Assembly (NCBI RefSeq): GCF_001447785.1
Contig: NW_015167061.1
Location: 2,724,140 to 2,788,139, forward strand
DNA length: 64,000 nucleotides
Direction: 5' to 3'
Source of the DNA: Gekko japonicus
Taxonomy: Eukaryota
Shown here: piece by piece, positions 53,123 to 58,501 of the stretch
How the letters are laid out: each line of letters opens with the position of its first letter
Numbering within the stretch: position 1 is the first letter of the stretch
Program-made: the position numbers

Positions 53123-56100
53123 TGAGGAAATAGGCGTTAACAATCCCTGCCATATGAGGTGATCATGACAGTGGCTCAAGGGAGGAACGGGTGGGTCTTA
53201 TGGAATTAACCTCTGACCGCCAGGGCTGGGAGGCAGCATCGGGGGAAGCCTCGGCCTCTATGGGCTGTCTGTTGGTCACCCTGTGACACGGGATGCTGGA
53301 CTAGATGGAACTTGTCTGGTTATCACCTTGGCCCAATGGATGTGGGTAAGCAAGTTATTAGGAGCTGGATATAATCAGAAGAGTTTTCGGCTAAACATTA
53401 GAAAGAACTTCCTGACAGAGCAGTTCCTCAGTGGAACCGGCTTCCTCGGCAGGGGGTGGGCTCTCCTTCTTGGGAGGTTGTCAAGCAGAGGCTGGATGGC
53501 CAACTGACACAGCACTGCTGATTCTGTGAACTGAGGCAGATCATGAGAGGGAGGGCAGGAAGGGCTGCCTCAGAACTTAGTTCTCGTGGCCCTTTCTTAT
53601 ACCCCCAGGGGAATGCCAATTGCCACTTTGGGGTCAGGAAGCAACTTTTCTCCAGGCCAGTTTGGCTGGAGAACCTGGAGGGTTTTTTTTTGTCACGTTC
53701 TGGGCATGGAGCAAGGGGTCACTGGGTATGTGTGTGTGAGTGTGGGGTATTTGTGAATTTCCTGCCTTGTGCAGGGGGTTGGACTAGATGACCCTGGAGG
53801 TCCCTTCCAACTCTTAAGATTCTATTACTCTGTAATGGAAAAATAAAGATCAGCTTGTACCCTTGAGACCAGGCAGAGAGTGTTTCAGGTCCAAAGTATA
53901 AAATGTAGGTTCTCTCCTTTAGGGCCCTTGTCTCCTACCTTCTTTCCCCAAGCGACTCCTACATCTCACCAGTGTTCCCTCTAAGCTGAGTGTGAGCTAG
54001 CTCAGTTTTTTAGCCTCCGGCTCACAGTTTTTTGTCTTGGCTCAGGGAGGATGGATCCAGAGCAAACTAATTTATGCAGTAGCCAAATCGCTTGCTCACA
54101 ACTTTAATGCCAGTCGCTCACAAAGTAGAATTTTTGCTCACAAGACTCCACAGGTGAGAGGGAGCATTGCATCTCACTCATCTAACTTCTCAGAATTCTA
54201 CAGCTGAATGTTCTCAGCCATTAGAACATGCAGCCTCTAACATCATAGCGGTACAGCTGGTAGTGGAGCTTGACTACAGAGACAGCAAGTTTTCAACTTG
54301 TTATTTCTTCTCCCCTTCCCTGCTTGTTTTTTAATTGAAGCACTTGAATGTGGAGTTCCCCAGTATGGAAGCCCTGCTGGATCATTACTCTGGGATGAAA
54401 GGGGGCCTCTTCTGCTCCTTGGCTGCAGGCCGGGCACACCATTGCTATGAGGAACAAGATTATTCAGCAGAGAATGAATGGAGAGAGCAGAGTCGCTCGC
54501 AGGCCTCGTGGCTATTTGGTCCCAGTAAGTCTCTGGCGGTCCAGCAGGAACTGGGCTAACACTTGGCAAAGGGACTCCTGGATCATCATTTGCATCATCC
54601 ACGTAGAACCGTACAGACTGTTTTGTGGTATATCCAAGCTGCATCACGCTTTCCTCTTTCTGGCTAGCCGTGTGGTTCTGGTGTGGTACAGATCCTCCGT
54701 GGTGTGGGTCTAGTTTCAGCTTAGTAGAATATGAATGTCCATCGCAAACTTGTCTTAACCCTTCTAGCCAAAGGCTTCCAGCACCTCACCGCCATCTCTG
54801 GGCAGTAAGGAGTGGTCAACACCCTCTTCATTGTTCTAGTAATTCAGGGAAAGATATCATGTTAACCTCAGCTGTAGAAGATTCATCATCACTGATTAAT
54901 TACTTTTGGTAAGAATAATTCTCAAGGCTTGTGGTTATAGTAAGCTTTCTCTCTCAGCCAGTTCATACGTTTGCCTTTAAGCCCTACCCTTATATTTTTA
55001 AATTGGAGTATGAGAAGGAGCAATAAAAGACAATCTGTAAATTAATATACATTGACGCATCCGTTCTAGAAGGGTATTCAGATTAGTCTGTTGCAGGAAA
55101 ACACCATGAGTCTTATGATACCTTATGGATTTGTAGTATTTCATTACATCCATTAGTTTCCAGAGCCTGCCTTTTGGGGGGGGGGGGGCATGTGCAGAAT
55201 AAATGCAGAAACGTTCCTTCCATACAAATGAAAAGGTTTAAAGGATGCTGTGAAGAGTCACATTTATTCCAAAGTGTCCCCCCCCCCCCCCCCCGAAATG
55301 TTTGTGGCTTATCCTCTTGTGGCCTCTGGCGAGGCTGATAGGTGCCTGCCTGCCTGCCTGCTGTCAGGTTTCATTTGCAAGAAATGTCATGTGAGCATGC
55401 TCATATTTATTAACCATATGAAGTAATGCTGCTGTTTAAAGTACTTATATTTAAAATATGTTTATTTGTAGCCTGCCTTTCTCACAGGGACTCAAGGCAG
55501 ATTACGTAGAGTCAAACTGTGCAATAGGAGTGGAATAACAAGAATTAGAAACAATGCAAAAACAAGGCCAAAAACAAGGCAGGCAGCAGACACGAGGTCT
55601 CATAAACAATGCAAGGAGGTGTGGAAATGGAATTACGGATGTAGAAAGTAACGGCAGTCAGAGCGAGAGGACCATGGACGGCGATCATGTCGCTTGCGTA
55701 AGAGTGGCGCCCTCGGCTCCCTTATCTTGGCGGCCTTAATGGATTCCCTCCGGAGCCGCCCTGGCTCTTTCCGGCGGTCTGACCTCCCCAGGAGGCCCAG
55801 GCTGCAGCCGAGCGCTGGTTCCGAGCCCCACGAGAGGGGGCCCCGCCTCTGCGCTGCAGACGGAAGCTCCCCCTTAGGGTTGCCACGGCCTCCAGGTGGG
55901 GCCTGGGGATCTCCCGCTTTGCCAACTGATCTCCAGCCGGCAGAGACCAGCTCCCCTGGAGGAAACGGCCCCAAACCCCGCCCTCTCCCGGCTCCAACCC
56001 CACCCCCCCAAAGTCTCCAGGTGTTTTCCAGCCCAGACCTGGCAGCCCCTCCTCCCGTGGGCGGGGCGTCCCGCCGCTGTATTTGTGCTCCGAAATAAAG

Positions 56101-58501
56101 GCTTTCAACCCGCGTCTGTCTGCCGCGTCTGCTCTGAACGGGGGGGGGGGGGGGGTCACCGCCGCCGTAGTTTAAAAAAAATCGTTGGGCGCCTCAGTTG
56201 CCGCGACAACGGTCAGTCTGGCCGTCGGGTGTTTTTTACGTCAGATCCCGTCCGGCCCAAATCGGATTGGTCGCCACGAGCCAACAGAGAGCGGGGATTG
56301 GTCGCAGGCAAAGCGAGCCCCGATTGGCTAAAGAACTTCCCCTGAGGCCATGGGGGAGCGGGGCTCGTGGCACAGGAGCTGTCCCCCTCTGATTGGCTCC
56401 CGTGGCGCAGGAGGCGGGCTTGGCAGGAACTCGGCTCGGCCGATTAGAGGATGGGGCTTAGCCCCGCCTGCAGAGGGGGCGGTGTTGTTCTCTGATTGGT
56501 GGGCCCCGAGAGCGGCGCTTCCGAGAGGGAAGGCGGAAGATGGCGGCGGCTGCTTCGGCGTGGCTGGCGCTGACGGCGGCCGTGGCCGTGCTGGGCCTGG
56601 CCCGGGCGGCGGCGGCGACGGTGGGCGGCGGGTCCCGCACTCTGGTGCTGCTGGAGAACATGAACCTGAGGGACACCCACTCGCTCTTCCTGCGCAGCCT
56701 GGCCGGTGAGGGAGGGGGGAGGCGGCGGCGGCCGCCTCCGACGCGCCCCGAGGCAACCCGGGACTCAGGCGGACCCCCGGGCGGCGGAGTGGGCGGAGGG
56801 GTCCGCGGCCGCCTCTCGGACCACCTGCGGGCGAGTCGTGGCTGCTCTGCGTGCGGAAAGCCGGAGCCCTCGGCCGGCGCGGTTGCTTCGTAGCCGCTGC
56901 TCGTTGGGACATACGGCCCTAAGAGAGAAGCCCGCGTTGGATCGGGCCAGTGGCCCCTCCGTGCCGCACACCAGGGGACACCTCAGGGGGTCCGGGCGAG
57001 CCTGAGCCGGGCGAGTCCCTGCGGGAGGCAGCCGCCCTGCTTTCTGAGAGGGAAAGCCCCGCCGCCCTTGGGCCTCGTGGGCGCACCGACCCTGCGGCCG
57101 CTCCCCAGTCTCCCGTTACGCTCTGCAGAGCAGACTCCACTGGGGAGGCCCGGCCTGGAGGAAGCCCGCCTAGCCTCGAGCAGGGCCCCTGCCTGGTGGA
57201 ACGGTCTCCCGAGTGAGAGCCAGGCCCTGCGGGACTTAATGCGGAGATGTCCGGCCGGGGCTATGGTCGTGGCGGCGGGGGCCTAGACCGTATGGGCCTC
57301 CTCTGCTTTGGCTGGCTGGCTTTGCTGCCATCATGCCATCCAGGGCTAATCTCATCTGCCGCGCCCACTCTCAGATTAGCTGTGTCTACCTGTAGGCACA
57401 CATAGGGCGCCTTGGAGTAGATGGACAATTGCTGCCATGTCCGTAGTGTAGATTCTGACATTGATTTTAAAGTGTTTGTTATGTTTTAATTACATTGAGC
57501 TTATGCTGTGGTAAACTGCCCCGAGCTTGCTTGCAGGGAAGGGCAGTCTAAAAGCCCTATAATACTGGAAATAAATTTGAGTCACTCTTTGCTCTCCACT
57601 CTCTAGCTGTCCAGCTTCCTTTTTGACACGTGGCGTCCAGAACTGCCCACAGTATCCCAAGCGGGGCCTTGTGCTCTCTGGCCGTCATTCATTGTTGTCA
57701 CCTTTGACTGGCTGAGTGGTCCTCCTGAGTCTCAGGCAGAGAAAGAGTCCTGTGATCCGTGCTGTCCCTGATCTTGTGACAGAGGCTGAACTTGGGATTT
57801 TCAGGCTAGAAGCTAGTGCAGTACCTTTGAGTCATCCTTCCAAAAGTCTGAGAGTGTACATCATCCCCTTTGTCCACCTACATGGCTGTCTGTCCTGAGT
57901 TGTTCCCAGCACCTCCAACCAGAGAGCTTTTAGCTGGAGAGACTGCTAAGGATTGAGCCTGAGACTGACCTTCCGTGTGCAAAGCAGGGGTTCATTCATT
58001 GAGCTCTGGTTTCTGCAAATGAAGCTGTGAAAGGAGTCGGACCATTGGTCTGCTTGCCACCTCTGCCAGGCAGTACCCTTCTAGTTGTTGTTCAGTCGCA
58101 CAGTCGAGTCTGACTCTTCGCGACCCCATGGACCAGCTCCCGCCAGGCCCTCCTGTCTTACCCTTCTAGGGTCTTAGGCAAACAAAGGTTTTTCACCCAC
58201 CACCTGAGAGCCTTTTAGACAGAGATGACCCAGTTGAGAGCCTCGAGGTGTGACACACGGACCCGTGCCAGAGGCTGCACTCCGCTGTCCCCCATCACCA
58301 GAGCCAGCCTTCTGTGCCTGTGAAAACAGTACCTTTCTTCCTCCACTCTGTTGACTCTTGCCTGAAAAGCAGGATCCCAGGGGGAGCAGAACTCTGGCTT
58401 GTGGGGCAGGTCTTCCATTCAGCACTTTGTGCTGTATAAGCTGTAATTAGTATTTATTCAATGCATTCTTGAGTGTGGTTTCTGGCAGACTGGTGGACTG
58501 A

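What the first reader, a model, noticed from the sequence alone, without database searches (positions are those of the whole stretch)
54560..56539. KIF17 is missing from its syntenic slot between SH2D5 and DDOST
Established: the human order in transcription direction is EIF4G3-HP1BP3-SH2D5-KIF17-DDOST. Seen: here the SH2D5 stop (54559) and DDOST ATG (56540) are under 2 kb apart with no N gap. The interval holds a 3' UTR, repeat fragments and the DDOST promoter, with no kinesin motifs (GQTGxGKS, SSRSH, DLAGSE) in the ORF track. Inference: the homodimeric kinesin-2 (OSM-3 orthologue, linked to cilia, photoreceptor and dendritic transport) was deleted or relocated in this lineage. I cannot tell how widely this is shared among reptiles.
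Basis: partly seen in the sequence, partly recalled or inferred. Interest (0 to 1): 0.65.

Follow-up and report, generated by a model that had tools for sequence, protein, structure and literature searches.

The report
KIF17 absent from gecko syntenic slot
In this gecko sequence the genes SH2D5 and DDOST lie only 2 kb apart with no trace of the kinesin gene KIF17 that separates them in mammals, but whether the gene was lost, moved or dropped by the assembly could not be tested here.

Summary
The SH2D5 stop codon is at 54557-54559 and the DDOST start codon at 56540, 1,980 bp apart, with no N between them. The window is Gekko japonicus or a very close relative: the last SH2D5 exon is 99% identical to that species' protein. 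An eIF4G-type gene, an HP1BP3-type gene, SH2D5 and DDOST all lie on the + strand in the mammalian order.

No kinesin signal was found in the interval or elsewhere in the 64 kb. The interval holds a probable 3' UTR, a dispersed repeat and a CpG-rich promoter with five inverted CCAAT boxes. Remnant searches found nothing credible.

What happened to KIF17 is untested. No vertebrate genome, reads or transcriptome, and no KIF17 query sequence, were available. I favour whole-gene deletion (about 0.5) over a copy elsewhere or an assembly error. Eight paper searches that ran found no report of KIF17 loss in squamates. Interest is modest: an ordinary kind of finding, a candidate lineage-specific gene loss, not yet verified.

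The parts
8110..23568 (+). 3' part of an eIF4G-type gene (EIF4G3 by position only). Domains in order: MIF4G, MA3, W2.
   Evidence: Pfam on single ORFs: MIF4G at 8110-8703 (1.9e-22) and 10719-10946 (3.1e-8); MA3 at 17715-18074 (3.3e-14) and 17932-18228 (4.8e-7); W2 at 23356-23568 (1.2e-19). Which eIF4G paralogue it is was not tested.
41524..46881 (+). HP1BP3-type gene: several linker-histone (H15) exons and a lysine-rich C-terminal tail.
   Evidence: Linker_histone hits in ORFs 41524-42027 (1.1e-9), 43974-44522, 44344-44823 and 45689-46093. ORF 45478-46878 ends in a K/P-rich tail. The name HP1BP3 rests on domain architecture and position, not on an orthologue search.
49636..54559 (+). SH2D5 coding exons. 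The last exon is about 54341-54556, with stop TAA at 54557-54559.
   Evidence: tblastn of P0001 (G. japonicus), P0002 (Eublepharis) and P0007 (Podarcis): exons at 49636-49722, 50143/50230-50304, 50574/50622-50774, 51213-51467, 51867-52040, 52564-52686, 52904-53065 and 54335-54556. Last exon 99% identical to G. japonicus SH2D5.
54560..56539 (.). The interval in question: 1,980 bp, GC 0.53, no N, no kinesin signal.
54560..55220 (+). Probable SH2D5 3' UTR with two AATAAA signals (55022, 55198). AT-rich and CpG-poor.
   Evidence: Motif positions and CpG observed/expected of 0.14-0.59 in 54600-55400. Inferred; no transcript evidence.
55440..55650 (.). A-rich stretch with a 12-bp tandem unit (55549-55580). 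It looks like a repeat fragment by eye.
   Evidence: Tandem repeat row. No second copy in the window at E <= 0.01, so its status as a repeat is unverified.
55848..56110 (+). Dispersed SINE-like repeat. The AATAAA at 56094 lies in its degenerate tail.
   Evidence: 70% identity over 212 bp to 31189-31395 on the - strand, and 68.5% over 108 bp to 48839-48939 on the + strand. Pairwise alignment.
56140..56155 (+). G16 homopolymer. It is one of three G/C runs of 9 or more in the interval, with G13 at 55176-55188 and C17 at 55278-55294.
   Evidence: 48 such G/C runs in 64 kb, so they are not specific to the interval.
56260..56539 (+). Probable DDOST core promoter and 5' UTR: five inverted CCAAT boxes and a GC box, inside a CpG-rich zone of about 55600-57000.
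   Evidence: ATTGG at 56266, 56297, 56323, 56392 and 56495; GGGCGG at 56477; CpG observed/expected of 0.8-0.97 in most 200-bp windows (0.53 at 55800). Function inferred from sequence signals only.
56540..56705 (+). DDOST exon 1 (ATG at 56540, signal-peptide-like start, donor GT at 56706).
   Evidence: (Varanus DDOST P0020, E 1.1e-7; 8 of 13 hits named DDOST/OST48).
58574..62814 (+). DDOST exons 2-9.
   Evidence: tblastn of P0020, P0026 and P0029: 58574-58684, 59016-59153, 60684-60791, 61136-61231, 61505-61615, 62063-62215, 62426-62575 and 62641-62814. OST48_N and OST48_MD.

Best explanation
In Gekko japonicus or a very close relative, the whole KIF17 transcription unit is absent from its conserved position, most likely through a genomic deletion that ran from just past the SH2D5 polyadenylation region to just before the DDOST promoter. 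Both neighbours are left intact. DDOST encodes a subunit of the oligosaccharyltransferase complex (recalled), so deletions that clipped it would probably be selected against.

Shown: the four neighbouring genes are present, in one orientation and in the mammalian order; the gap is 1,980 bp of continuous sequence; no kinesin-like coding sequence exists in it or anywhere in the 64 kb.

Inferred: that the ancestor had KIF17 here; that the cause was a deletion; and that no KIF17 copy survives elsewhere, so that the animal has only the heterotrimeric kinesin-2 motors for ciliary transport. The dispersed repeat at 55848-56110 lies where the deletion junction would be. Repeat-mediated recombination is a possible mechanism but is only a guess.
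For: - Exact flanks: SH2D5 stop at 54557-54559 and DDOST ATG at 56540.
- No N in the interval.
- Gene order eIF4G-type, HP1BP3-type, SH2D5, DDOST, all on the + strand. This matches the cattle list EIF4G3, HP1BP3, SH2D5, KIF17, DDOST, PINK1 (PMC11905691, passages).
- No kinesin domain or motif in the interval or the window. The PDB search of the three + frames gave 1, 1 and 0 hits at E <= 1, none a kinesin.
- Most of the interval is accounted for by a 3' UTR-like stretch, a repeat and a promoter. About 570 bp remain unassigned.
- Both neighbours are complete at the ends that face the gap. Selection on a real deletion would produce this; a random misjoin would do so only by luck (inference).
- Reviews describe kif17 or Kif17 mutant zebrafish and knockout mice as having reduced outer-segment phagocytosis (PMC9828801, passages; PMC8370914, passages). 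That such animals are viable with mild defects, which would make loss tolerable, is recalled, not from a call.
Against: - Absence from the rest of the genome was not tested at all.
- Ancestral presence of KIF17 in this slot in sauropsids was not tested; only a mammalian order is documented by a call.
- No pseudogene remnant was found that would prove a former presence.
- The remnant search was incomplete. One of the three + frames of 55200-56540 had no large-database search, 54560-55199 had none in any frame, and no KIF17 tail sequence was available for comparison.
- The window looks like a scaffolded assembly (five N runs), and a dispersed repeat sits at the presumed junction. A collapse across two repeat copies cannot be excluded.
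Confidence: 0.5

Rival explanations
1. KIF17 still exists in the gecko genome at another place. Either it was moved out of the slot by rearrangement, or by duplication followed by loss of the original copy, or it never lay between SH2D5 and DDOST in the lepidosaur ancestor.
For: Nothing in the calls excludes it, because only 64 kb of the genome was visible. The ancestral order is documented by a call only for cattle. No pseudogene remnant was found in the slot, which fits a gene that was never there or left cleanly.
Against: The four flanking genes keep the mammalian order and orientation with a tight 2-kb junction. Moving one large gene cleanly out of such a block needs two precise breaks plus an insertion elsewhere, which is rarer than a deletion (inference from general knowledge). 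No kinesin sequence lies anywhere else in the 64 kb.
Confidence: 0.28
2. Assembly artefact. KIF17 lies between SH2D5 and DDOST in the animal, but the assembler joined two copies of a dispersed repeat, or closed a gap wrongly, and dropped the sequence between them.
For: The window carries five N runs of 15-273 bases, as scaffolded assemblies do. A dispersed repeat with at least two other copies in the window lies at 55848-56110, between the 3' UTR-like part and the promoter. Read support could not be examined.
Against: The interval itself has no N. G/C homopolymer runs, a possible sign of trouble, are no commoner here than elsewhere: 3 of 48 runs in 3% of the window. Both neighbouring genes are complete up to the junction, with poly(A) signals on one side and a CCAAT/CpG promoter on the other. 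A random misjoin would rarely remove exactly one gene (inference).
Confidence: 0.14
3. A short, decayed remnant of KIF17, such as a first or last exon or its promoter CpG island, survives in the roughly 570 bp of unassigned sequence (55220-55440, 55650-55848, 56110-56260). The locus would then be a pseudogene stump and not a clean deletion.
For: The CpG-rich zone starts about 940 bp upstream of the DDOST ATG and is split by the repeat. It could therefore be two promoter islands brought together. By eye, the ORF through 55672-55739 starts with Met and has a V-R-x-x-P spacing that faintly recalls the start of a kinesin motor (recalled; not significant in any search).
Against: No Pfam kinesin match even at E <= 10. 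No PDB kinesin match in the three + frames. A search of 1.84 billion representatives with that frame gave a single spurious hit, a bacterial-type beta-helix repeat protein. The word-based search with a second frame gave 0 hits at E <= 0.1 among 8,000 scored candidates, which the tool itself calls weak evidence.
Confidence: 0.08

Closest known systems
Mammalian gene block EIF4G3-HP1BP3-SH2D5-KIF17-DDOST-PINK1 (cattle chromosome 2, as listed in PMC11905691; human 1p36.12 from memory)
   Same: An eIF4G-type gene, an HP1BP3-type gene, SH2D5 and DDOST lie in the same order, all on one strand.
   Different: KIF17 is missing. SH2D5 and DDOST are 1,980 bp apart. PINK1 lies beyond the window and was not seen.
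KIF17 / OSM-3, the homodimeric kinesin-2 motor
   Same: Nothing in the window resembles it. It is named only as the expected occupant of the slot.
   Different: No kinesin motor domain or motif in any frame. Reviews tie its function to ciliogenesis, cone outer segments and disc shedding (PMC8370914 and PMC9828801, passages).
Lineage-specific gene loss inferred from a closed syntenic slot (a standard argument in vertebrate comparative genomics; recalled, no paper read)
   Same: Conserved neighbours are adjacent, the sequence between them is continuous, and there is no coding remnant.
   Different: The other half of the standard argument is missing: absence from the rest of the genome, from reads and from transcripts, and presence in outgroups.

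Membership tests
Kinesin motor protein (KIF17, kinesin-2) | Kinesin motor domain (Pfam PF00225) | tested here: not met
   No hit in six frames of 54335-56541 at E <= 10, in six frames of 49600-64000 at E <= 1, or in 407 ORFs of 1-49650 (141 + 124 + 142).
Kinesin motor protein (KIF17, kinesin-2) | P-loop, switch I (SSRSH) and switch II (DLAGSE) motifs (patterns recalled) | tested here: not met
   0 matches in all six frames of the 64 kb. Only seven matches to a 4-residue RxRP pattern, none of them in the interval.
Kinesin motor protein (KIF17, kinesin-2) | KIF17-specific coiled-coil and tail sequence | not testable with these tools
Untargeted searches of two of the three + frames found nothing credible.
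SH2D5 orthologue (upstream flank) | Orthology to named SH2D5 proteins over all exons | tested here: met
   Last exon 99% identical to G. japonicus SH2D5; 18 of 18 significant hits are squamate SH2D5 or align as such. Exons map at 92.7-100% identity to P0001.
SH2D5 orthologue (upstream flank) | PID/PTB plus SH2 domain architecture | tested here: inconclusive
   The window's own frames gave no PID or SH2 hit at E <= 1. Among 12 of the 18 orthologues scanned, 6 show PID, 2 show SH2 and 5 show nothing at E <= 0.01; matches are weak (17-25 bits, near or below Pfam's cut-offs) even in full-length proteins.
DDOST / OST48 (downstream flank) | OST48 N-terminal and middle domains | tested here: met
   OST48_N E 1.6e-29 and 9.6e-8; OST48_MD E 4.7e-9, all on the + strand. 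Nine exons align to Varanus, Anolis and Apteryx DDOST.
DDOST / OST48 (downstream flank) | True N-terminus at the ATG at 56540 | tested here: met
   Homologues align from their residues 11-12 to 56582-56597. The hydrophobic start is visible in the translation. Signal-peptide cleavage was not tested.
True gene loss | Absent from the conserved slot, with continuous sequence between the neighbours | tested here: met
True gene loss | Absent from the rest of the genome, from reads and from transcriptomes | not testable with these tools
True gene loss | Present in the slot in outgroups (ancestral state) | not testable with these tools
   Only a cattle gene list was seen. No sauropsid locus was available.
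True gene loss | Join supported by reads or by an independent assembly | not testable with these tools
   No reads were available.

The most novel reading that the evidence does not exclude
Geckos, and possibly a wider squamate clade, are natural nulls for KIF17, the vertebrate OSM-3 orthologue, having deleted the whole gene cleanly from between SH2D5 and DDOST. They would be a tetrapod lineage that builds and renews sensory cilia, including its unusual photoreceptor outer segments (recalled), with heterotrimeric kinesin-2 alone. That would be an evolutionary test of how dispensable the homodimeric motor is, and of its proposed role in disc shedding.
Probability: 0.4. Interest if true: 0.45.

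Novelty: new member of a known kind. Interest (0 to 1): 0.3.

Why it matters
If KIF17 is really gone from geckos, nature has run the knockout. Reviews tie KIF17 to ciliogenesis, cone outer-segment structure and the daily shedding of outer-segment tips in zebrafish and mouse (PMC8370914, PMC9828801; passages). Gecko photoreceptors are an unusual case of their own (recalled). A confirmed loss would show that a land vertebrate can do without the homodimeric kinesin-2, and would invite a look at disc shedding, olfactory cilia and sperm in geckos.

If a copy turns up elsewhere, or the join is wrong, the finding is routine locus bookkeeping. As it stands it is a well-defined candidate that a single genome-wide search would settle.

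Tried and rejected
1. Fused gene models. I hoped that automatic annotations of other squamates might have fused KIF17 to SH2D5 or DDOST, which would have given me a tool-derived KIF17 sequence. None of the 12 SH2D5 hits scanned (of 18) carries a kinesin domain. All 13 hits to DDOST exon 1 are 530 aa or shorter, too short to be a fusion with KIF17, and the 7 that carry precomputed Pfam domains show only OST48 domains.

2. Remnant searches.
- The frame starting at 55200 against 1.84 billion representative proteins gave one hit (E 3.3e-4). It is a bacterial-type beta-helix repeat protein that matches the translated CCAAT-box repeats, so I rejected it as spurious.
- The frame starting at 55202, by the word-based search restricted to longer proteins, gave 0 hits at E <= 0.1 among 8,000 scored candidates.
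- The frame starting at 55201, and all frames of 54560-55199, had no large-database search.

3. G/C homopolymers as a sign of a bad join: rejected. They occur at the same density across the whole window.

4. AATAAA at 56094 as a relic KIF17 poly(A) site, or as part of an LTR: rejected. It aligns to the degenerate tail of a SINE-like dispersed repeat.

5. Rfam (0 families at gathering scores) and ARAGORN (0 tRNA genes) found nothing in the window.

I dropped that idea.

7. Papers. One search timed out. One search was badly framed: none of the 30 listed papers holds KIF17. KIF17 paired with gecko (1 paper), reptil (7), lizard (11), 'gene loss' (12) and snake (6), and KIF17 with DDOST and chicken (1), gave nothing on KIF17 evolution in reptiles, judged from titles and abstracts. 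In PMC11276731 a figure on the taxonomic distribution of proteins that include KIF17 is not held.

8. No structure prediction or complex prediction was run; nothing here called for one.

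
Full report
**What was checked first.** I read 54000-57200 and listed all stop-to-stop ORFs around it. The frame that ends in TAA at 54557-54559 encodes a C-terminal peptide. As a single-exon query it is 99% identical to the protein that NCBI names SH2D5 in Gekko japonicus, and 85% identical to that of Eublepharis. All 18 significant hits, among 29 candidates, are squamate SH2D5 proteins or unnamed models that align as such. The window therefore comes from G. japonicus or a very close relative.

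tblastn of three named SH2D5 proteins against the window places the other exons at 49636-53065 on the + strand, at 92.7-100% identity per exon to the G. japonicus protein. The mismatches may be over-extension of the alignments into introns.

The ATG at 56540 opens an exon (56540-56705, donor GT at 56706) that matches DDOST of Varanus, Anolis and Apteryx from about their residue 11-12. Eight more DDOST exons follow to 62814. Pfam finds OST48_N (E 1.6e-29) and OST48_MD (E 4.7e-9) on the + strand.

The five N runs of the window (202-307, 430-657, 1066-1164, 43482-43496, 48363-48635) all lie outside 54560-56539.

**How the searches were done.** All homology searches used single exons, or named reference proteins run against the window. 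No contig or protein was taken for human. Five unnamed sample-derived hits were left unused.

**Surroundings.** Pfam on single + strand ORFs shows the following, in order:
- MIF4G at 8110-8703 and 10719-10946, and MA3 at 17715-18228;
- W2 at 23356-23568;
- Linker_histone hits in four ORFs between 41524 and 46093;
- a lysine-rich tail ending at 46878.

That is the C-terminal architecture of an eIF4G-type gene, followed by an HP1BP3-type gene, then SH2D5, then DDOST, all on the + strand. The names EIF4G3 and HP1BP3 rest on architecture and position; I did not run orthologue searches for them.

A cattle study lists the genes near one marker as EIF4G3, HP1BP3, SH2D5, KIF17, DDOST, PINK1, CDA (PMC11905691, passages seen). 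This documents the order in a mammal. I had no evidence for any sauropsid.

**Is a kinesin there?** No.
- Six-frame read-through of 54335-56541 (stops as X) against Pfam at E <= 10 gave two noise rows only, DUF2448 (0.16) and ETRAMP (1.4).
- The same scan for 49600-64000 at E <= 1 gave only the OST48 domains on the + strand and nothing on the - strand.
- In 1-49650, 0 of 141 + strand ORFs >= 76 aa, 0 of 124 + strand ORFs of 52-75 aa and 0 of 142 - strand ORFs >= 78 aa carry a kinesin domain. Shorter ORFs there, and ORFs containing N, were not scanned.
- Regular expressions for the P-loop, switch I and switch II motifs, written from memory, have 0 matches in all six frames of the 64 kb.
- phmmer of the three + frames of the interval against all PDB sequences gave 1, 1 and 0 hits at E <= 1, an isochorismatase and a proteinase inhibitor.

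**What the interval holds.** It is 1,980 bp with GC 0.53.
- 54560 to about 55220 is AT-rich and CpG-poor, with AATAAA at 55022 and 55198. This is a plausible SH2D5 3' UTR.
- 55440-55650 is A-rich with a 12-bp tandem unit. It looks like a repeat fragment, but has no second copy in the window.
- 55848-56110 is a dispersed repeat. It is 70% identical over 212 bp to 31189-31395 on the other strand, and 68.5% identical over 108 bp to 48839-48939. The third AATAAA (56094) sits in its degenerate tail.
- From about 55600 to 57000 the sequence is CpG-rich, with observed/expected of 0.8-0.97 in most 200-bp windows.
- Five inverted CCAAT boxes (ATTGG at 56266, 56297, 56323, 56392, 56495) and a GC box (56477) precede the ATG. 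This is a plausible DDOST promoter.
- About 570 bp (55220-55440, 55650-55848, 56110-56260) are unassigned.
- Rfam and ARAGORN find nothing in the window.

**Remnants.** One + frame of 55200-56540, searched against 1.84 billion representative proteins, gave a single hit (E 3.3e-4). It proved to be a beta-helix repeat protein of bacterial type that matches the translated CCAAT-box repeats, so it is spurious. A second frame gave no hit at E <= 0.1 among 8,000 scored candidates, which the tool itself calls weak evidence. The third frame, and 54560-55199 in all frames, were not searched in the large databases. The tail of KIF17, which Pfam does not model as far as I recall, was therefore never specifically sought.

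**Could the join be wrong?** The window is scaffold-like (five N runs), and a dispersed repeat lies at the presumed junction, so a collapse across two repeat copies is conceivable.

Three points argue against this. The interval has no N. G/C homopolymers are no denser here than elsewhere (3 of 48 runs). Both neighbours are complete right up to the gap, which selection would ensure for a real deletion but which a random misjoin would achieve only by luck. I could not look at reads.

**Explanation and weights.** I favour a clean deletion of the whole KIF17 unit in the gecko lineage (0.5). The rivals are a KIF17 copy elsewhere in the genome, whether relocated or never in this slot in lepidosaurs (0.28), an assembly artefact (0.14), and a small undetected stump, which is a variant of loss (0.08).

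Shown: the flanks, the gene order, the continuity of the sequence and the absence of kinesin coding sequence. Inferred: the ancestral state, the deletion itself and absence from the rest of the genome.

Background on function: reviews report KIF17 at the basal body and axoneme tip of zebrafish cones, disrupted outer segments on knockdown, and reduced disc shedding or phagocytosis in mutants of zebrafish and mouse (PMC8370914 and PMC9828801, passages). That knockout animals are viable with mild defects is my recollection.

**Is it in print?** Nine paper searches were sent. One timed out and one was badly framed. KIF17 paired with gecko, reptil, lizard, 'gene loss' or snake, or combined with DDOST and chicken, returned 1, 7, 11, 12, 6 and 1 papers. 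None concerns KIF17 evolution in reptiles, judged from titles and abstracts. I read passages of only four papers.

**Verdict.** This is a well-defined candidate for a lineage-specific gene loss, an ordinary kind of finding, of modest interest until a genome-wide search and a check of the join are done.

Noticed in passing
whole window, e.g. 52058-52077 (G20), 40443-40461 (G19), 46513-46531 (C19), 49969-49987 (C19): G or C homopolymer runs of 9 or more bases are very common: 48 in 64 kb, against 7 A or T runs. Some sit directly before exons, for example C18 plus C9 at 61108-61135, just before the DDOST exon at 61136. I could not tell whether this is a trait of the genome or of the sequencing and assembly.
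   Followed up: partly
window 1412-2791 (+): A 460-aa open frame with no Pfam family, in the AT-rich, N-interrupted start of the window. By eye its end resembles the N-terminal part of tyrosine-recombinase-type mobile elements (recalled). It is probably a transposon remnant in an intron of the eIF4G-type gene.
   Followed up: no
window 34465-34791 (-): Weak match, below Pfam's cut-off, to the retroviral matrix protein family Gag_MA (E 0.0024, 18.1 bits against a cut-off of 30), between the eIF4G-type and HP1BP3-type genes. It could be a decayed endogenous retrovirus fragment or chance.
   Followed up: no
window 31040-31460 (-), 48839-48939 (+), 55848-56110 (+): A dispersed SINE-like repeat family with at least three copies in 64 kb. 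In the copy near 31100 the core is followed by an (AAG)n stretch and a second module, which is shortened in the interval copy.
   Followed up: partly
window 56260-56500 (+): Five inverted CCAAT boxes within 230 bp upstream of the DDOST start codon, in a CpG island. This is an unusually dense array of likely NF-Y sites (factor recalled) for a housekeeping promoter. Its translation caused the only, spurious, hit in the search of representative proteins.
   Followed up: partly
window 48363-48635: A 273-base N run lies between the HP1BP3-type gene and the first mapped SH2D5 exon. The SH2D5 promoter and any first exon may therefore be incomplete in this window. The G. japonicus reference protein P0001 maps only from 50622, whereas Eublepharis and Podarcis proteins map further upstream, at 50143 and 49636.
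   Followed up: no
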